From: a virus
Reading direction: 5' to 3' (one strand)
IMG/VR virus record: IMGVR_UViG_3300050821_001858
Location: 32,001-96,000 of that record
DNA: 64,000 bases
Shown here: positions 3,900-60,377 of the stretch, piece after piece
Layout: every line of letters begins with the position of its first letter
How positions within the stretch are numbered: position 1 is the first letter of the stretch
Notes under the pieces: model-generated
What the model was told of the DNA's origin: nothing
The model's input: only the letters and a program-made list of their open reading frames with translations
The model's database searches: none
Translations under genes and position numbers: made by a program

Positions 3900-5298
3900 A
3901 ACATCGATATTATCAAACCTTATTACCAACGAAGAATACATCCGAAAAGTCTTTCCTTATCTCAAAAAAGAGTACTTCATGGACGGTGCTGAAGCTACCG
4001 TTTTCCATGTGATCAAAGAATACTTTGACAAGTACAATAAACGCCCCCTTATTCAGGTAATGCAATCTGAATTGGCGGAATATAACCTGAGTACTAAGGA
4101 ATTTGATCAGGTAAAATCTGTCGTTGAAAGTATTAAGTCTCTTGATAGCGTAAAACCAGATTTGGAGTGGCTTGTTGACACCACAGAACAGTGGTGTCAA
4201 ACGCAAGCTATTCATGGTGCCATCCTTCAGTCGATGGATATCATTTCGGATGACAAAAAACCCCGGAACGCAATTCCGGGGTTGTTGCAAGATGCTTTAG
4301 CGGTTTCATTTAATAGCGACGTTGGACTTGATTTTTATGATCATGCTGATTATTGGTATGATTTAACTCATAGTCGTTTACCGCGTATACCTTTTGATAT
4401 TGATTATCTGAATAAAATCACCAAAGGTGGTTTACTCCCCAAGACGTTGAACATCATTATTGGTGGTGTTGGTTTTGGTAAATCGCTTTGGATGTGTCAT
4501 ATGGCAGGCGCTAACCTGCTACAAGGTAAAAAAGTCTTGTATATTACCATGGAGTTGTCGAAAGAACAAACCATGGAACGTATCTATGCAAATATGTTGA
4601 ATATTTCATTGGATATGATGCCTGATATCCCTAAAGAAATCTTCTTGAAAAAAGTTGAGAAGATGAAGGAAAAGACGGCTGGTCGTCTAAAAGTGGCAGA
4701 GTATCCTACTGGTTCCGCTGGTGCTGCTAACTTTCGACATCTTTTGAATGAACTGAAAGTCAAGCAGAATTTCGTTCCTGATATTGTTTATATCGATTAT
4801 TTGAATATTTGTTGTTCAAGTCGAGTAAAACTTTCGGGGAATCTAGGGATGTATAATTATGTCAAGTCAATTGCTGAAGAAATTCGTGCTCTCGCAGTTG
4901 AACAAAATATCCCTATTATCTCGGCTTCGCAGGTTAACCGTGAAGGGTTTAGATCGTCTGATCCGGGTATGGATGATATTTCGGAATCCTTTGGACTAGC
5001 AGCAACAGCCGATCTGATTATTATCATCATTCTGTCCGAAGAGTTAATAGCTCTAAACCAATATATGGTCAAGCAAGGAAAGAACCGGTACGCTGACGTT
5101 AATCGGTTCAATAAGTTCGTAGTTGGGGTAGATAAACCAAAGATGCGTCTTTATAATGTGGAAGCGCATGCTCAATCGAGAACTATAGAGGAACCAACCG
5201 TTGTTCAATTAGAAGCCCCCGTTGATTATGAGAAGTCTCTTATCGATGCTTTAGGATCGCTGGTTGAACCGGAACCTGAATGGAGTCAATATGGATAA
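3889..5298 (+). CDS. 41: Replicative DNA helicase (T4 gp41-like)
   Basis: GGVGFGKS Walker A, YITMELS, IDYLNI, ISESFGLAATAD, KNRY. Confidence 0.96.
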   Translation: MRTETSILSNLITNEEYIRKVFPYLKKEYFMDGAEATVFHVIKEYFDKYNKRPLIQVMQSELAEYNLSTKEFDQVKSVVESIKSLDSVKPDLEWLVDTTEQWCQTQAIHGAILQSMDIISDDKKPRNAIPGLLQDALAVSFNSDVGLDFYDHADYWYDLTHSRLPRIPFDIDYLNKITKGGLLPKTLNIIIGGVGFGKSLWMCHMAGANLLQGKKVLYITMELSKEQTMERIYANMLNISLDMMPDIPKEIFLKKVEKMKEKTAGRLKVAEYPTGSAGAANFRHLLNELKVKQNFVPDIVYIDYLNICCSSRVKLSGNLGMYNYVKSIAEEIRALAVEQNIPIISASQVNREGFRSSDPGMDDISESFGLAATADLIIIIILSEELIALNQYMVKQGKNRYADVNRFNKFVVGVDKPKMRLYNVEAHAQSRTIEEPTVVQLEAPVDYEKSLIDALGSLVEPEPEWSQYG

Positions 5299-23563: not shown

Positions 23564-23638
23564 GCCTCTATCGTATAGTGACTATTACACCACCTTTGTA
23601 ACGTGGATACTTCAGTTTGATTCTGAATAGGGGCTCCA
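23564..23638 (+). tRNA. tRNA-Thr(TGT)
   Basis: GCCTCTA/TAGGGGC, loop TTTGTAA, T-loop TTTGATT, CCA. Confidence 0.8.
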
Positions 23639-30944: not shown

Positions 30945-31035
30945 GCGCTTCGGTGTTGGACATGAGATGGACTTATAAACCATTTTGCAGCGGACGGCTG
31001 TATCTAACTAGGTTCGAATCCTAGGAGGCGCACCA
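30945..31035 (+). tRNA. tRNA-Ile(TAT)-like with long variable arm
   Basis: GCGCTTC/GAGGCGC, loop CTTATAA, V-arm TGCAGC/GCTGTA, CCA. Confidence 0.75.
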
Positions 31036-36571: not shown

Positions 36572-36932
36572 GTTATAGACGGACTATCGCTGTACACCTA
36601 TATGGGCTACCTTCGGGTACTGTACAGAGGAAAGTCGGGGCTGCACACGAAACCGTACAAGGTAACACCTTGGTATTCATAACTGCCACGCTTTTATGAA
36701 TGACGATTAGAGCAACAGAAAATATGTATGCTTTATATACATGCCTAGATAGAGTGGGATAAACTTGTATATAAAGGCGTAGTGAAATTGGCAATCTCTA
36801 CGGGCAGCAATCCCTAATAGGTCACTAGCCTTCGTGGGCGTTACGGTGACGGGTCGGGAGCTAGAGGGTAATCGCGAGGTTACTCCCAGATAAATGATAG
36901 TACTTGACAGAACCCCGCTTATAGTCTATAAT
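36572..36932 (+). ncRNA. rnpB: RNase P RNA
   Basis: P1 TTATAGAC/GTCTATAA, CR-I GAGGAAAGTCGGGGC, AGAGCAACAGAAA, GTGAAA, AGATAAATGA, CR-V ACAGAACCCCGCTTAT. Confidence 0.92.
36904..36932 (+). promoter_or_regulatory. Perfect sigma70 consensus promoter inside rnpB 3' end
   Basis: TTGACA-N17-TATAAT. Confidence 0.7.
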
Positions 36933-37207: not shown

Positions 37208-37288
37208 GCACGCATAACCCCCTCGTCTTCGAAACGAGAGAAAGGTAACTGGATGTAAATGGGGGTTCGAATCCCTCTGCGTGCTCCA
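37208..37288 (+). tRNA. tRNA-Arg(TCG), no conventional D-arm
   Basis: GCACGCA/TGCGTGC, 7-nt connector, CTCGT-CTTCGAA-ACGAG, 22-nt variable region, CCA. Confidence 0.75.
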
Positions 37289-37289
37289 T

Positions 37290-37367
37290 GGTTTCTTAGC
37301 TCAGTTGGAATAGAGCATCGCCCTGCGAAGGCGAAGGTCATCGGTTCGAGTCCGATAGAAACCTCCA
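37290..37367 (+). tRNA. tRNA-Arg(GCG)
   Basis: TCGCC-CTGCGAA-GGCGA, A20, CCA. Confidence 0.9.
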
Positions 37368-37386
37368 TTTTATAAAGGGAGATGAT

Positions 37387-37914
37387 ATGACAGGTGAATA
37401 TAATTATAAAGGTGATTACGGTGCTATTGCGGATCGACCAATCGATTCAGCTACTTGGACTGGTGAAGACACTAGTAAGTATCCGGTAGCGAATGCTGTT
37501 TATATCAATACCAATCCTGTTGGTACTAGTAATGTAATGCTTGAAACTACTCAAGATACAAAGTATCAACAGTTTGAAGATGAAATACGGGCACTAATCA
37601 ACAAACTATCACTTGAAGGTAATTCAAATACGCCTGATTTTATTCTCGCTGAGTTTCTGACAAACTGTCTTAAGGATTGGGATAGTGTTTCCTCTTATGA
37701 ACAGTTTATGGATAGCGATGAAGTCCTTTGGGACTATCTGTGGCTTGCTCGCAGAACATTTCGAAACACAAAGACTGTTCGTGCCAAGTGGTATATGCCG
37801 GTTATCGCTGAAAAGATAGCTTCGTCTTGGTGGAAAAAGTTGTATGTTTTCTGGGGAAGGCTTTGGGTTGCTTACCTAAATAATGGTAACTATAGTGATG
37901 CCTGGAAAAAGTAA
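37387..37914 (+). CDS. Hypothetical protein
   Basis: INKLSLEGNSNTPDFILAEFL motif, GGAG RBS. Confidence 0.7.
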   Translation: MTGEYNYKGDYGAIADRPIDSATWTGEDTSKYPVANAVYINTNPVGTSNVMLETTQDTKYQQFEDEIRALINKLSLEGNSNTPDFILAEFLTNCLKDWDSVSSYEQFMDSDEVLWDYLWLARRTFRNTKTVRAKWYMPVIAEKIASSWWKKLYVFWGRLWVAYLNNGNYSDAWKK

Positions 37915-37918
37915 TTAT

Positions 37919-37995
37919 TGGGGAGTAGGCTACGTTGGCTAAACCGCTTGGCTCTGAACCATGAGTAGAAGGTTCGACACCTTCCTCCCCATCCA
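37919..37995 (+). tRNA. tRNA-Gln(CTG)
   Basis: U1-A72, loop CTCTGAA, CCA. Confidence 0.88.
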
Positions 37996-38039
37996 TTTTT
38001 CTCTTGACATTCGAGGGAGATAAGTATACAGTAGATAAT

Positions 38040-38113
38040 GTCCTGTTGGCAGACCGACGATGCAACGGATTGCAACCCCGTTAAAGCTGGTTTAATTCCG
38101 GCACAGGACTCCA
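38040..38113 (+). tRNA. tRNA-Cys(GCA)
   Basis: Loop TTGCAAC, U73, T-loop TTTAATT, CCA. Confidence 0.85.
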
Positions 38114-38120
38114 CTTTAAT

Positions 38121-38203
38121 GGTCTAGTAACCGGTTCGGGTTTCTACCCCGCTATCCGTAATTGGAGTTGTAAATGCGGGTTCGAGCCCTGCCTAGATCG
38201 CCA
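38121..38203 (+). tRNA. tRNA-Arg(TCT), no conventional D-arm
   Basis: GGTCTAG/CTAGATC, short connector, loop TTTCTAC, long variable region with AATTGGAG, CCA. Confidence 0.72.
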
Positions 38204-38219
38204 TTTTAGGAGGTATATT

Positions 38220-38381
38220 ATGAAAGATGTTGATGCTGATCTTACCGAAGCATTATCGATTATCGCTGGTTTAATGTATTATGTTTCTGGTCATGATCTA
38301 CGAGAAAGAGAAGCAAAGATTTTGAAAGAGTATTGCAATCGTGCTAATTCTCTTAGACAAAAGTATCAAACGCTTTCTTAG
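38220..38381 (+). CDS. Hypothetical protein
   Basis: 53 aa, AGGAGG RBS; stop TAG inside tRNA-Arg(CCT). Confidence 0.6.
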   Translation: MKDVDADLTEALSIIAGLMYYVSGHDLREREAKILKEYCNRANSLRQKYQTLS

Positions 38382-38447
38382 TTCAACCGGAGAGAATAGT
38401 TGTTTCCTAAACTTCAGATTTGGGTTCGAGTCCCAAGGAAAGCACCA
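38372..38447 (+). tRNA. tRNA-Arg(CCT)
   Basis: Loop TTCCTAA, two U-U pairs in anticodon stem, CCA. Confidence 0.82.
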
Positions 38448-41480: not shown

Positions 41481-42233
41481 ATGGAATATGAAGAAAAATT
41501 CCGGGGTATGGCTCATGCAGGTCAACACGCATCCCGGTGCCTCTCGTTATTAAAAGATTTGATTGTACCGGGCTGGTCAACGGCTCGGATTGATGCGTTC
41601 GTCCATGATTATGCTAAGGCTAATGATTTAATATGTGCGACGAAGGGATATAAGGGTTTCCCTGCCTATTGTTGTACTTCCGTCAACCACATTGTCTGTC
41701 ATGGTATACCATCCTTAAGTAAAATACTCAAAGATGGTGACTTATTAAAGGTTGATATCACATTCATTAATAAGGATGGCTGGCATGGTGATACATGTCG
41801 GACATATTTCGTCGGTGACGCTTCAGTTAAAGCCACTCGGGTTGCTCAGGTCGCTAAGGAAGCCATGGATAGAGCGATTGCTATTATTCGCCCCGGTGTG
41901 ACGTTTGGTCATCTGGGGAAGGTATGTGAAGACTATGTTAACAGTCAAAGGATGGGTGTGGTCAAGGGATATTGTGGTCATGGAATAGGGCAAGAGTTTC
42001 ATACTTTACCTCCTATTCTACATTATTATGATCCGAAGAGTTCCTATGCGCATCAACCTATTCTAGAAGGAATGACCTTTACAGTTGAACCAATGGTAAC
42101 ATTTGGTAAGTCGGATGTAAAGGAACTGTCTGATGGGTGGTCGGTAGTTACTAAAGACCGATCCCTGTCAGCACAATGGGAACACACAATAGGAGTAGTT
42201 GCAAATGGGCACCACATATTCACCGCCTACTAA
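41481..42233 (+). CDS. map: Methionine aminopeptidase type I
   Basis: CTSVNHIVCHGIP, KVDIT..GWHGDT, GHGIG..FH, TVEPM, SAQWEHT. Confidence 0.96.
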   Translation: MEYEEKFRGMAHAGQHASRCLSLLKDLIVPGWSTARIDAFVHDYAKANDLICATKGYKGFPAYCCTSVNHIVCHGIPSLSKILKDGDLLKVDITFINKDGWHGDTCRTYFVGDASVKATRVAQVAKEAMDRAIAIIRPGVTFGHLGKVCEDYVNSQRMGVVKGYCGHGIGQEFHTLPPILHYYDPKSSYAHQPILEGMTFTVEPMVTFGKSDVKELSDGWSVVTKDRSLSAQWEHTIGVVANGHHIFTAY

Positions 42234-46269: not shown

Positions 46270-46490
46270 TGGCACCTAGACCATGGGAACCTGTTGGAAG
46301 ATATTACCTACTTGAATGGTGGGAAGATAATGTTACAGATTTAATGGGTGCGTTAGCACAATTATATAGTGTGGATATCTATGGTACTAATGCTCGTTTA
46401 ATACGTTTTGCTACTCAAAGATGGAATTTCATGCAATCAATAAAAGAACGAATCTCACGTTTACAAGATCAAATATATCGAAGAGGATAA
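46266..46490 (+). CDS. Small aromatic-rich protein (dispersed family)
   Basis: ATGA-coupled; ends QDQIYRRG. Confidence 0.55.
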   Translation: MMAPRPWEPVGRYYLLEWWEDNVTDLMGALAQLYSVDIYGTNARLIRFATQRWNFMQSIKERISRLQDQIYRRG

Positions 46491-46492
46491 AA

Positions 46493-47233
46493 ATGAAAAA
46501 CATTCGTTTGTTCGCCGATACAGCGTCGATGACTGATATTAAGGAAATGGTAGCTAATGACTTGGTGGAAGGATATACTACTAATCCTACGCTCATGCGT
46601 CGAGCGGGAATTAAGGATTATAAGGGATTTGTCACCGAAGTCTTGGATTACCTAGCGGAACATCATCCCGATGGATGTATCTCTTTTGAGGTATTTTCGT
46701 CGGATGAAATGGAGATGGTTTATGAGGCTCGGGAGTTGAAAAAACTCAACTATCATAACTATAATATGTATGTCAAGGTGCCTTATCTCAATATCGATGG
46801 ACGCCCTAATGAGCAAGTTATTCGTAATCTGCTCAAAGAGGATATTTCAGTCAACGTAACAGCAGTTTTTAATCAGATACAGGCTATCCATTCTATTCAG
46901 ATGTTAGCCGACGATAATAATGATCATATTATATCGATCTTTGCTGGTAGAATTAATGATACTGGATATCCGGCTGAAAAAATTGTAGCCTATATTATAG
47001 CTATTCCAACTCAGAATGTAGAAATCCTTTGGGCATCCCCTCGTCAGGTTTTTGATTATGTTTTGGCAGATAGTGTAGGGTGTCATATTATCACCATGAC
47101 CCCCGATTTAATAAGGAAGATACCGGGAATTGGTACGCCTCTGAAACTGGCAGCATTGAATACATCGCGTCAGTTTTATGATGACGCAAAAGCTTGTGGT
47201 TATAAACTTTGGGAGAATGAAGATGGGGTTTGA
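46493..47233 (+). CDS. tal: Transaldolase
   Basis: FADTA, GYTTNPTLM, ISFEV, YVKVP, NVTAVF, SIFAGRI.DTG, LWASPR. Confidence 0.92.
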   Translation: MKNIRLFADTASMTDIKEMVANDLVEGYTTNPTLMRRAGIKDYKGFVTEVLDYLAEHHPDGCISFEVFSSDEMEMVYEARELKKLNYHNYNMYVKVPYLNIDGRPNEQVIRNLLKEDISVNVTAVFNQIQAIHSIQMLADDNNDHIISIFAGRINDTGYPAEKIVAYIIAIPTQNVEILWASPRQVFDYVLADSVGCHIITMTPDLIRKIPGIGTPLKLAALNTSRQFYDDAKACGYKLWENEDGV

Positions 47234-59505: not shown

Positions 59506-59536
59506 TTGACATCTGACCCAAGATGCAGTATAAATA
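59506..59536 (+). promoter_or_regulatory. Composite sigma70 / T4-late promoter for tmRNA
   Basis: TTGACA-N17-TATAAA; the -10 is also TATAAATA. Confidence 0.7.
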
Positions 59537-59540
59537 AGAC

Positions 59541-59833
59541 ACTGGACGATTAGTTGATGGTTCAACTAAACACGAAACACTCGGGGGCAGTACCCGATAC
59601 CTCCACCAAAAGCACATACCCTACCCAAAGGGTTGTTGACAGGGTTGGAAGGATCAACGCACAGGATGTGCTTTTGATGGGGGTAAAATAGGTTCGACTT
59701 CGTGTGGAATGGAATCGGATAGTCGGTCGGTATATAACTGTCGCATCAAACGACAACTTTGCTCGGGAACTCGCCCTCGCGGCGTAATTCCCTACGGAGT
59801 TCGGTAGCTTCCTTGGCAACAGAAAAGCTACCA
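59541..59833 (+). ncRNA. ssrA: Two-piece (circularly permuted) tmRNA
   Basis: Acceptor piece TCGGG-GGCAGTA-CCCGA-TACCTCC-A-CCA ends 59608; coding piece starts GGGGGTA at 59679 (G3:U70); tag (V)ASNDNFARELALAA-stop 59740-59787. Confidence 0.93.
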
Positions 59834-59870
59834 TTTCACCATGTGTTTAACGAAAATAGGAGTGTATACA

Positions 59871-60377
59871 ATGAGTTTGAATTCGAATGTTCGTAAGTTT
59901 GACCCTGTAAAGGGTATGGCGTTTCAGGGCGACCTCGCCATCGTTCCGGTTCCGGCTTCCGTGAAGCTTAACACCGCCAACGAAATCCAGCCCAAGAACG
60001 GCTACCTTGTTCTTCTTGAGGGTGAGTTGACTGGTCATCACCATGCAATTCCGGTCCTTGAGCGTCCGACCACTCAGGTTGAGCCGAAGACCACCCCGAA
60101 GAAGACCAGCAAGACTGTTGAAAACCTTTTCGACCTTGCTACTCAGGCTCCGTCCACCGCCAAGATGTATCGTGATGCAAACGTCGCATCAGAGATGCAG
60201 CGCCTCGGCATCCTTACCCGTACCGACCTGATTGTCGGTGTGCTTGAGGTTTCCGAAGGTAACGGTGTTATCCTTCGCCATCACGAGCATGATGGTATCC
60301 ACCTTCCGAAGGGCACTTACTACATCGGTCGTCAGGTCGAAAGTGCTTTCAATGAAGAGCGCCGGGTCGCCGACTAA
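59871..60377 (+). CDS. His-rich conserved phage protein
   Basis: QGD, EGELTGHHH, HHEH..I.LP.G.Y...RQ.E. Confidence 0.75.
   Translation: MSLNSNVRKFDPVKGMAFQGDLAIVPVPASVKLNTANEIQPKNGYLVLLEGELTGHHHAIPVLERPTTQVEPKTTPKKTSKTVENLFDLATQAPSTAKMYRDANVASEMQRLGILTRTDLIVGVLEVSEGNGVILRHHEHDGIHLPKGTYYIGRQVESAFNEERRVAD

What the first reader, a model, noticed from the sequence alone, without database searches (positions are those of the whole stretch)
37208..38203. Two Arg tRNAs with the D-loop apparently transposed to the variable region
Seen: Arg-TCG and Arg-TCT have only 7-8 nt (TAACCCC, TAACCGGT) between acceptor and anticodon stems. Their 22-23-nt variable regions contain GTAACTGGAT and GTAATTGGAG, resembling the Arg D-loop with G18-G19-A20, and both end in TGTAAAT. 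The connector can pair with bases flanking that loop. Inference: a rewired topology that rebuilds the L-shape and keeps the A20 ArgRS determinant.
Basis: partly seen in the sequence, partly recalled or inferred. Interest (0 to 1): 0.7.

Follow-up and report, generated by a model that had tools for sequence, protein, structure and literature searches.

The report
Phage arginine tRNAs with relocated D-loop
Two genes in this phage's tRNA array are very probably working arginine tRNAs that are not cloverleaves: their D-loop and one D-stem strand lie after the anticodon arm, in a conserved phage design that gene finders miss and that I found in no paper.

Summary
Window 37208-37288 (anticodon UCG) and 38121-38203 (UCU) have a normal acceptor stem, anticodon arm, T arm and encoded CCA. 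Only 7-8 nt separate the acceptor and anticodon stems, and the 'variable' region is 22-23 nt with UAAYUGGA.

- The connector pairs with the bases flanking the UAAYUGGA bulge, with many compensatory changes. RNAalifold finds this helix de novo, and no permutation (0/2000) reaches the native pairing.
- The bulge behaves as a D-loop. Its third base covaries with the last base before the T stem (A-U 109, G-C 38, one exception), like the R15:Y48 Levitt pair.
- GG becomes GA exactly in the four sequences whose T-loop has U56 instead of C56.
- The base after GG is A in 96/96 Arg members and in 1/51 Ile/Met members (the A20 ArgRS determinant).

The two genes supply the only UCG and UCU anticodons found in this partial (63% complete) phage record. 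Their codons make up 48-59% of the Arg codons in the window's ORFs.

Charging, 3D shape and the benefit of the rewiring are untested. This scan has found the same class before on other DNA; I found no published description.

The parts
36904..36932 (+). Sigma-70-type promoter-like site (TTGACA-17-TATAAT, 12/12) upstream of a 63-aa ORF, candidate 1 and tRNA-Arg(GCG)
   Evidence: This is a consensus match only; transcription was not shown.
37208..37288 (+). Rewired tRNA-Arg(UCG) gene, including the encoded CCA (37286-37288) and discriminator U (37285)
   Evidence: Sequence. Rfam tRNA 34.7 bits with the D arm deleted. Class model R1 65.4 bits.
37215..37221 (+). Candidate 1 connector UAACCCC: U8, A9, then the 5' strand of the D-like helix
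   Evidence: CC can pair with GG 37244-37245, and A10 (or A10 and C11) with U (or GU) after the bulge. That gives 3-4 bp and the register is ambiguous.
37222..37238 (+). Candidate 1 anticodon arm, 5 bp plus loop CUUCGAA; anticodon UCG at 37229-37231
37244..37255 (+). Candidate 1 relocated D-loop UAACUGGA (37246-37253) with its flanking partner bases GG (37244-37245) and UG (37254-37255)
   Evidence: Family covariation. The A after GG is the A20 equivalent.
37256..37260 (+). Candidate 1 UAAAU tail before the T stem; its last U is the Y48 equivalent, matched with A at bulge position 3
37261..37277 (+). Candidate 1 T arm with the canonical loop UUCGAAU (C56 present)
38004..38032 (+). Promoter-like site (TTGACA-17-TACAGT, 10/12) upstream of tRNA-Cys and candidate 2
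   Evidence: Consensus match only.
38121..38203 (+). Rewired tRNA-Arg(UCU) gene, including discriminator G (38200) and the encoded CCA (38201-38203)
   Evidence: Sequence. Rfam tRNA 25.3 bits, below the cut-off. Class model R1 85.7 bits; the gene is in that model's seed.
38128..38135 (+). Candidate 2 connector UAACCGGU: U8, A9, and D-like helix 5' strand ACCG(G)
   Evidence: A10:U38168, C11:G38167, C12:G38158, G13:C38157, and optionally G14:C38156.
38136..38152 (+). Candidate 2 anticodon arm, 4 bp plus a U-C mismatch, loop UUUCUAC; anticodon UCU at 38143-38145
38157..38170 (+). Candidate 2 split 3' strand of the D-like helix: CG (38157-38158) and GU (38167-38168), then UG (38169-38170), around the relocated D-loop UAAUUGGA (38159-38166)
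   Evidence: (alignment columns 37-50)
38171..38175 (+). Candidate 2 UAAAU tail; its last U is the Y48 equivalent
38176..38192 (+). Candidate 2 T arm, loop UUCGAGC (C56 present)

Best explanation
Both elements are genes for functional arginine tRNAs (anticodons UCG and UCU) of a phage-borne, non-cloverleaf class.

Proposed fold. [quoted passage not shown] After U8-A9, the chain supplies only the 5' strand of a D-like helix and runs straight into the anticodon arm. The partner strand comes after the anticodon arm and is split in two by a 7-8 nt bulge, UAAYUGGA. The bulge reads as A14-R15-Y16-Y17-G18-G19-A20. A 5-nt tail (UAAAU) then leads into the T stem. The secondary structure is fully nested: a three-way junction, not a pseudoknot.

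Inferred tertiary contacts, from covariation. The relocated loop makes the usual core contacts: R15 with Y48 (the last tail base), G19 with C56 of the T loop, and presumably U8 with A14. If so, an L-like shape is kept.

Inferred function. The genes are transcribed within the tRNA array and processed like their neighbours (CCA is encoded). They are charged by the host ArgRS through C35, G36 or U36, and the A20 equivalent. They read CGA/CGG and AGA/AGG.

Why the topology is rewired is unknown. My guess, at low confidence, is escape from an enzyme that recognises the normal D-arm/anticodon-stem side of tRNA-Arg, such as a tRNA-targeting nuclease of the host, of a competitor, or of the phage itself. 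A neutral, frozen rearrangement that then spread is equally possible.
For: SHOWN BY SEQUENCE COMPARISON
- Layout and motif are in the window.
- D-like helix: 97% of cells paired against 70.5% shuffled (0/500), and about 40-50% when the partner is slid. Double changes occur at 10:48, 11:47 and 13:37 on a gapless MAFFT alignment.
- RNAalifold predicts the same helix, with the 8-nt bulge, unaided.
- Over 145 unique members with many connector/partner combinations (TCC/GG^A, GCCG/CG^GC, ACCG/CG^GT, TCTC/GAG^A, TCGC/GCG^A and others), no permutation reaches the native pairing (0/2000).
- Levitt-type covariation: A-U 109, G-C 38, one exception. Mutual information is 0.83 bit, second only to the 27:43 stem pair. 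Sequences picked only by a C-ending tail all had G at bulge position 3.
- Elbow pair: all four distinct rewired sequences picked only by a U56 T loop have GA instead of GG; 154 with C56 have GG.
- Identity: A follows GG in 96/96 Arg members and 1/51 Ile/Met members. Canonical tRNAs of the same loci behave alike: 76/81 against 71/838. In the first set of 59 members, 11 of the 12 Ile/Met members have A73.
- 3' ends: the rewired genes encode CCA in 37/39 cases where the neighbours do, and lack it in 62/64 cases where the neighbours lack it.

SUPPORT FOR A DECODING ROLE
- No other tRNA found in the 113-kb record, which is only 63% complete, carries UCG, ACG or UCU; the canonical Arg tRNAs are GCG and CCU.
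- CGA, CGG and AGA are 48% of the Arg codons in the window's ORFs, or 59% with AGG.
- Pseudomonas phage PA11 has this type of tRNA-Arg(UCU) as its only tRNA hit. AGA plus AGG are 41% of its Arg codons. From general knowledge, not tested here, its GC-rich host rarely uses AGR.
- Hosts of the cultured carriers span four phyla or classes.
Against: - No expression, processing, charging or structure data exist for any member.
- U8-G and A9-U 'pairs' next to the acceptor stem are invariant, so they cannot be tested. They may not form if U8 pairs with the bulge A instead.
- In candidate 1 the helix has only 3-4 possible pairs and its register is ambiguous.
- Single-sequence MFE folds do not recover the fold and are not better than shuffles, z = -1.0 to -1.7.
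- The four A19/U56 sequences are all Arg-ACG and may stem from one event.
- Counts are not phylogenetically independent.
- 14% of rewired genes have a canonical tRNA with the same anticodon in the same locus. Zooman has both kinds of Arg-ACG.
- Nothing here tests the proposed benefit of the rewiring.
Confidence: 0.85

Rival explanations
1. Plain D-armless tRNAs of the mitochondrial tRNA-Ser(AGY) kind. On this reading the connector is an unpaired spacer, the long variable region folds on itself (as a class II variable arm does) or stays loose, and the GG motif has no D-loop role.
For: In candidate 2, UCCG-UAAU-UGGA can form a local 4-bp hairpin, and the MFE fold uses it. D-armless tRNAs do work in mitochondria (PMC9427863, PMC7609411).
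Against: The local hairpin is not conserved. The bases before the bulge vary (CG, GG, UG, GAG, GCG, CCG and others) while the UGG they would pair with is fixed. The best local stem averages 2.6 bp. The varying bases instead covary with the connector. The R15:Y48-type and G19:C56-type covariations and the A20 rule have no place in this model. The T loop is fully canonical, unlike in D-armless mitochondrial tRNAs.
Confidence: 0.04
2. A tRNA-like RNA that keeps the rewired fold but is not used in translation. Examples would be a decoy or sponge for a tRNA-targeting nuclease or for ArgRS, or a regulatory or processing element of the tRNA array.
For: No charging or decoding data exist. Some phages carry a canonical tRNA with the same anticodon next to it (21/148; Zooman). 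Decoy tRNAs are conceivable in phage-host conflicts; this is an inference.
Against: Features needed only for charging and decoding are kept: C35 with the A20 equivalent in all Arg members, U there in Ile/Met members (whose discriminator was A73 in 11 of 12 in the first set), U33 and a purine at 37, and the CCA style of the neighbours. In this window the two genes supply anticodons found nowhere else in the partial (63% complete) record, for 48-59% of its Arg codons. PA11's only tRNA is of this kind, and PA11 is rich in AGR codons.
Confidence: 0.08
3. Decayed or rearranged tRNA pseudogenes, or assembly artefacts, with no function.
For: Gene finders reject them. Candidate 2 is below the Rfam cut-off.
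Against: The same layout occurs in about 150 distinct sequences from about 100 contigs, and in finished genomes of cultured phages from unrelated hosts. All stems keep compensatory changes. A pseudogene would not keep them.
Confidence: 0.01

Closest known systems
Canonical class I bacterial and phage tRNA-Arg (Rfam RF00005; e.g. E. coli argU, phage T4 tRNA-Arg, and this phage's own Arg-GCG at 37290-37367 and Arg-CCU at 38372-38447)
   Same: 7-bp acceptor stem, discriminator and CCA. 5-bp anticodon stem with a 7-nt loop (U33, A37, C35). A 5-bp T stem with a UUCGA-type (T-Psi-C) loop. U8-A9. A loop reading A-R-Y-Y-G-G-A. A 4-6 bp helix involving positions 10-13. Covariations equivalent to R15:Y48 and G19:C56. 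A after GG, as in Arg D-loops.
   Different: The order of the parts differs. The D-loop and the 3' strand of the D helix come after the anticodon arm, so there is no D hairpin. The 3' strand is split by the loop, which is therefore a bulge. The anticodon stem abuts the 13 end of the D-like helix, not the 10 end. ARAGORN misses most of these genes (12/148 overlapped by a call).
D-armless mitochondrial tRNA-Ser(AGY) (structure paper PMC9427863; review PMC7609411)
   Same: There is no D hairpin between the acceptor and anticodon stems. A short connector is said to interact with the variable region and T loop.
   Different: The mitochondrial form has a short variable region, no G18-G19 loop, eroded T-loop conservation and a co-evolved dedicated synthetase. 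The phage class keeps a complete D-loop, a canonical T loop and bacterial identity elements, and occurs in phages of bacteria.
Class II tRNAs (Leu, Ser, bacterial Tyr) with long variable arms
   Same: There are more than 20 nt between the anticodon and T stems.
   Different: In class II tRNAs the extra region forms its own hairpin and a normal D arm is present. Here the extra region pairs back to the 5' connector and no separate D arm exists.
8/4 and 9/3 'allo-tRNAs' and other irregular tRNAs of bacteria and phages (Mukai et al. 2017, PMC5389517)
   Same: They are non-standard tRNAs found in phage tRNA clusters by sequence mining.
   Different: They change stem lengths but remain cloverleaves with a D hairpin in the normal place.
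Permuted and split tRNA genes of archaea and algae (review PMC4033280)
   Same: The segments of a tRNA appear in a non-standard order in the gene.
   Different: Those genes are processed into a mature tRNA with the standard order. Here the 5' and 3' ends pair as a normal acceptor stem with CCA, so the mature RNA itself should carry the new order (inference).

Membership tests
tRNA, canonical cloverleaf (Rfam RF00005) | Score at or above the Rfam gathering cut-off (29 bits) | tested here: inconclusive
   Candidate 1 scores 34.7 bits (met). Candidate 2 scores 25.3 bits (not met). Both align only with the D arm deleted and a 19-20 nt insertion.
tRNA, canonical cloverleaf (Rfam RF00005) | 7-bp acceptor stem, 5-bp/7-nt anticodon arm with U33 and a purine at 37, 5-bp T stem with a UUCRA loop | tested here: met
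tRNA, canonical cloverleaf (Rfam RF00005) | D hairpin (stem 10-13/22-25 closing the D loop) between the acceptor and anticodon stems | tested here: not met
   Only 7-8 nt lie there. ARAGORN makes no call. Rfam deletes the D arm.
Rewired-D-arm phage tRNA class (as defined by this scan and by model R1 here) | A 6-9 nt connector starting UA, whose later bases pair with the bases flanking a UAR..GG bulge in a 20-25 nt post-anticodon region | tested here: met
   R1 scores 85.7 bits (candidate 2, a seed member) and 65.4 bits (candidate 1, not in the seed), against 32 bits or less for this window's canonical tRNAs.
Rewired-D-arm phage tRNA class (as defined by this scan and by model R1 here) | Tertiary-pair equivalents: bulge base 3 with the last base before the T stem (A-U or G-C); the second bulge G with T-loop base 56 | tested here: met
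   Both candidates have A...U and GG with C56.
tRNA-Arg identity (bacterial ArgRS substrates; A20, C35, U/G36 from the published identity work, recalled from memory) | C35 with G36 or U36 | tested here: met
   Anticodons UCG and UCU.
tRNA-Arg identity (bacterial ArgRS substrates; A20, C35, U/G36 from the published identity work, recalled from memory) | A at position 20 of the D loop | tested here: met
   A follows GG in both candidates, in 96/96 rewired Arg members, and in 1/51 Ile/Met members. That this A is the structural equivalent of A20 is an inference.
tRNA-Arg identity (bacterial ArgRS substrates; A20, C35, U/G36 from the published identity work, recalled from memory) | Aminoacylation with arginine | not testable with these tools
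   This needs an ArgRS charging assay or acid-gel/tRNA-seq of infected cells.
D-armless mitochondrial-type tRNA | No D-loop G18-G19 element; short variable region; relaxed T loop | tested here: not met
   A GG-containing loop is present, the post-anticodon region is 22-23 nt, and the T loop is canonical.
Class II tRNA | The long variable region forms its own conserved hairpin, alongside a normal D arm | tested here: not met
   The local stem averages 2.6 bp and is not conserved. There is no D arm.

The most novel reading that the evidence does not exclude
A widespread, phage-specific tRNA fold. The D-loop and half of the D stem have moved to the 3' side of the anticodon arm, yet the canonical tertiary core (U8-A14, R15-Y48, G19-C56, A20 identity) is rebuilt. 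Host RNase P, ArgRS, EF-Tu and ribosomes from several phyla would therefore accept a non-cloverleaf tRNA. The fold started in tRNA-Arg and spread by anticodon shifts to Ile, Met and Lys. The rewiring may protect these tRNAs from nucleases or other enzymes that read the normal D-arm side.
Probability: 0.75. Interest if true: 0.9.

Novelty: new variant of a known kind. Interest (0 to 1): 0.85.

Why it matters
[quoted passage not shown] A common natural class that breaks the cloverleaf but appears to keep the L-shaped core would matter in several ways.
- It would show how much of tRNA topology the bacterial translation machinery really requires.
- It would give a natural test of which contacts ArgRS, RNase P, EF-Tu and modification enzymes need.
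- It would expose a blind spot in tRNA annotation. These genes are unannotated in RefSeq and GenBank phage records and are sometimes overlaid by 'hypothetical protein' calls.
- It would offer new scaffolds for orthogonal tRNA engineering.
- It is directly testable in cultured systems such as Pseudomonas phage PA11, whose only tRNA is of this kind.

Tried and rejected
- Single-sequence MFE folding gave unrelated folds with weak z-scores. It was not informative for this junction.
- MAFFT on members of mixed length misaligned the connector and anticodon arm. I replaced it with gapless same-length alignments and a covariance model.
- BLAST of the 1.6-kb region against cultured phages found no close relative of the locus, only tRNA-sized matches. 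One of them led to Zooman.
- The loose pattern GTAANTGG...GGTTCGA returned mostly coding-sequence chance hits; I kept only hits that passed the model or the parser.
I replaced it with a stricter tail-plus-T-arm pattern.
- A repeat of the strict subtype pattern on viral contigs failed on the server, so I have no like-for-like viral versus cellular count.
- The local variable-arm hairpin model was rejected.
- A pairing of N10 with the A after GG is inconsistent across members, so I do not claim it.
- My relaxed parser also picks up some canonical tRNAs whose D arm mimics an anticodon arm (the 'AAA' cases and the rows). These were excluded by eye.
- I saw no aaRS or tRNA-repair gene among the 20 largest ORFs of the window.
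Full report
WHAT IS THERE. The window is part of a 113-kb IMG/VR phage record that is about 63% complete. It carries a replication module: family B polymerase, RecA-like protein, DnaB, ThyX, RNR and a GH25 lysozyme. A tRNA array follows at about 22-40 kb, then a methionine aminopeptidase, a transaldolase and a tmRNA. ARAGORN finds 30 tRNAs and the tmRNA, but nothing at the two sites of the finding.

- Candidate 1 (37208-37288) has a perfect 7-bp acceptor stem, the 7-nt connector UAACCCC, a 5-bp anticodon stem with loop CUUCGAA (anticodon UCG), 22 nt containing GGUAACUGGAUGUAAAU, a canonical T arm, U73 and CCA.
- Candidate 2 (38121-38203) has the 8-nt connector UAACCGGU, loop UUUCUAC (anticodon UCU), 23 nt containing CCGUAAUUGGAGUUGUAAAU, a canonical T arm, G73 and CCA.

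The Rfam tRNA model aligns both only by deleting the D arm and inserting 19-20 nt before the T arm. It scores 34.7 and 25.3 bits against a cut-off of 29. Like their neighbours, both genes encode CCA. They lie just downstream of promoter-like sites: TTGACA-17-TATAAT at 36904-36932, and a 10/12 match at 38004-38032.

IT IS A FAMILY, NOT A ONE-OFF. I scanned IMG/VR contigs for the tail-plus-T-arm motif, leaving the rest free. I then used a bulge-plus-T-loop motif and a variant tail. These scans gave loci in which the same layout recurs.
- A covariance model built from eight 80-nt members scores members at 40-99 bits. Apart from four ordinary tRNAs that share the seed's tail and T-arm motif (36-47 bits), canonical tRNAs in the same loci score about 35 bits or less.
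- The model finds only these two members in the whole phage record.
- A motif-light parser asked for acceptor pairing, UA at positions 8-9, an anticodon arm 6-9 nt after the acceptor stem, and a 14-34 nt following region containing UAR..GG. It collects 150 distinct sequences from 101 loci, two of which are false positives.
- Their anticodons are UCU 43, ACG 24, UCG 20, CCU 7 and GCG 2 (Arg), UAU 27 and GAU 20 (Ile), CAU 4 (Met or Ile2) and CUU 1 (Lys).
- ARAGORN overlaps only 12 of the 148.

The class is also present, unannotated, in cultured phages.
- Pseudomonas phage PA11 (NC_007808.1 47672-47751).
- Maribacter phage Panino (PP540027.1 28066-28145, partly under a 'hypothetical protein' CDS).
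- Microbacterium phage Zooman (OK040793.1 89187-89262 and 95033-95111).
- Sinorhizobium phage Phosso (PV764938.1 450936-451022).

A strict subtype pattern found only five places among 185,579 species genomes. All five are MAG contigs, and two of them carry phage-like arrays of 13-14 tRNAs.

THE CONNECTOR HELIX. A gapless MAFFT alignment of 16 same-length members, including candidate 2, PA11 and Panino, was not fitted to any model. On it the proposed structure gives 97% standard pairs. Shuffled partners give 70.5% (0/500), and partners slid by 1-3 columns give 39-51%.

The D-like helix pairs vary by double changes:
- 10:48 is AU 8, GC 7, CG 1.
- 11:47 is CG 11, UA 2, AU 1, UG 1.
- 13:37 is GC 12, AU 3, CG 1.
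- 12:38 (C-G), 9:49 (A-U) and 8:50 (U-G) never vary, so they say nothing either way.

RNAalifold, given only the alignment, predicts the same helix with the 8-nt bulge, plus a sixth anticodon-stem pair, 15:33.

Across all subtypes there are dozens of different connector cores, each with a matching partner: TCC/GG^A, GCCG/CG^GC, ACCG/CG^GT, TCGG/CCG^A, TCTC/GAG^A, TCGC/GCG^A, CACGA/TCG^TG and others. Native pairing (positions 10 onward only) averages 4.12 pairs. When connectors are exchanged among members of equal connector length, it averages 3.08 +/- 0.07, and 0 of 2000 permutations reach the native value.

The position of the bulge within the partner strand differs by subtype. It is 2+2 in candidate 2's subtype and 2-4 before plus 1-2 after in the others. 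In candidate 1 only 3-4 pairs are possible and the register is ambiguous.

The rival local hairpin within the variable region is not conserved.

THE BULGE BEHAVES AS A D-LOOP. There are three independent lines of evidence.

(a) Levitt-pair equivalent. The third bulge base (A or G) and the last base before the T stem (U or C) go together: A-U 109, G-C 38, and one real exception. Both states occur within Arg and within Ile members. Mutual information is 0.83 bit, above the acceptor 7:66 pair and second only to the 27:43 pair. The sampling was fair. Sequences fetched by a U-ending tail all had A, sequences fetched by a C-ending tail all had G, and sequences fetched with A fixed all had U. This is the behaviour of R15:Y48 in ordinary tRNAs (established knowledge).

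(b) Elbow pair. I fetched sequences by tail plus a T arm with U instead of C at loop position 3 (position 56), leaving the bulge free. This gave four distinct rewired tRNAs, all with UAAUUGAA, that is GA instead of GG. All 154 members with C56 have GG. All four are Arg-ACG and may descend from one event.

(c) Identity. The base after GG is A in 96/96 Arg members. In Ile/Met members it is U 44, G 5, C 1 and A 1. In canonical tRNAs of the same loci, A follows the D-loop GG in 76/81 Arg tRNAs and in 71/838 others. A20 is a major ArgRS determinant in E. coli (established knowledge; not re-checked in a paper here). In the first set of 59 members, 11 of the 12 Ile/Met members have A73.

ARE THEY USED AS tRNAs? 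This is inferred, not shown.
- The rewired genes follow the 3'-end style of their neighbours: CCA is encoded in 37/39 cases where neighbours encode it, and absent in 62/64 where they do not.
- In this phage record (63% complete) the canonical Arg tRNAs are GCG and CCU only. The one tRNA hit outside the window has anticodon CUA. The two candidates therefore supply the only UCG and UCU anticodons found.
- CGA (19%), CGG (11.5%) and AGA (18%) make up 48% of the Arg codons in the window's ORFs, and AGG adds another 10.5%.
- In PA11 (44.8% GC) the rewired Arg-UCU is the only hit to the tRNA model in the genome. AGA plus AGG are 41% of its Arg codons. This is the classic codon-compensation pattern for a phage of a GC-rich host.
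- 86% of rewired genes have no canonical tRNA with the same anticodon in the same, partial, locus.

HOW IT LIKELY WORKS. The secondary structure is a nested three-way junction. The acceptor and T helices are stacked as usual. A long arm is made of the D-like helix (4-6 bp with the 7-8 nt bulge), a small internal loop (1-2 nt by 3-5 nt) and the anticodon stem. That arm has about 12-13 stacked layers, similar to the D plus anticodon domain of a normal tRNA (my estimate).

Compared with a cloverleaf, the D helix is entered from the other end. The anticodon stem follows position 13 instead of position 25, and the loop leaves from the middle of the 3' strand. The covariations indicate that the loop still reaches Y48 and the T loop, so the corner of the L is probably rebuilt. 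Whether U8 pairs with the bulge A (as U8-A14 does) or with the invariant G after the helix cannot be decided from sequences.

The anticodon spectrum consists of Arg NCG/YCU plus UAU, GAU, CAU and CUU. All but GAU are one base away from an Arg anticodon found in the class, and GAU is one further step from UAU or CAU. This fits an origin in tRNA-Arg followed by anticodon shifts with an A20-to-U20 change (inference).

I cannot say why the topology is kept. Escape from an enzyme that reads the D-arm side of tRNA-Arg is a guess. A frozen neutral rearrangement is equally possible.

COMPARISON WITH WHAT IS KNOWN. I found no description of this layout in the papers I could search.
- The 2020 review of non-canonical tRNAs does not mention phages or such a fold.
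- Mukai et al. describe 8/4 and 9/3 cloverleaves in bacteria and phages, not this layout.
- The nearest analogue, mitochondrial D-armless tRNA-Ser(AGY), lacks the D-loop altogether.

Earlier AI notes of this same scan report the same class on other DNA, with the same reading. They are leads, not evidence. I tested the shared claims here, and the R15:Y48, G19:C56 and A20-versus-U20 tests are my own.

VERDICT. This is a new variant of a known kind: a tRNA with a new topology. Interest is high. Charging, 3D shape, and the advantage of the design remain to be shown experimentally.

Noticed in passing
window 30945-31035 (+): A 91-nt tRNA-like gene with an encoded CCA. It has a 7-bp acceptor stem, a tiny D hairpin (4 bp with a 3-nt loop), a 6-7 bp anticodon stem with a 9-nt loop ACUUAUAAA (UAU inside), an extra variable hairpin, and a normal T arm. 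The Rfam tRNA model gives only 23.5 bits and ARAGORN is silent. It may relate to the odd phage tRNA-Ile(UAU) noted earlier in this scan.
   Followed up: partly
window 23564-23638 (+): A tRNA scoring 45.6 bits on the Rfam model that ARAGORN misses. Read as a 7-nt loop with a C31-C39 mismatch, its anticodon is UGU (Thr). The MFE fold instead shows a 9-nt loop.
   Followed up: partly
own genome G000:C1:25187-25262 (outside the window; locus L174 88-163): A tRNA with anticodon CUA, an amber-codon reader that ARAGORN labels 'tRNA-Pyl'. It raises the question of whether this phage reads UAG as a sense codon.
   Followed up: no
window 59516-59878 (+): A phage-encoded tmRNA with tag peptide VASNDNFARELALAA.
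   Followed up: no
window 37290-37367 (+): The canonical tRNA-Arg carries anticodon GCG rather than the ACG (read as ICG) usual in bacteria. With CCU, UCG and UCU, the phage covers all six Arg codons without an A34 tRNA.
   Followed up: no
L025 (IMGVR_UViG_3300046009_010115) 3904-5165: One phage array holds at least five rewired tRNAs: Ile-GAU, Ile-UAU with an extra hairpin inside the variable region, Met/Ile-CAU, Arg-UCG and Arg-ACG. L220 holds a rewired Lys-CUU. The design is therefore not limited to Arg.
   Followed up: partly
window 41481-42233 and 46421-47233 (+): Methionine aminopeptidase (M24) and transaldolase genes lie downstream of the tRNA array. These are translation-related and metabolic auxiliary genes.
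   Followed up: no
PP540027.1 28228-33717 (Maribacter phage Panino): A 5.5-kb CDS annotated 'tRNA methyltransferase' lies directly next to Panino's tRNA array, which holds the rewired Arg-UCU.
   Followed up: no
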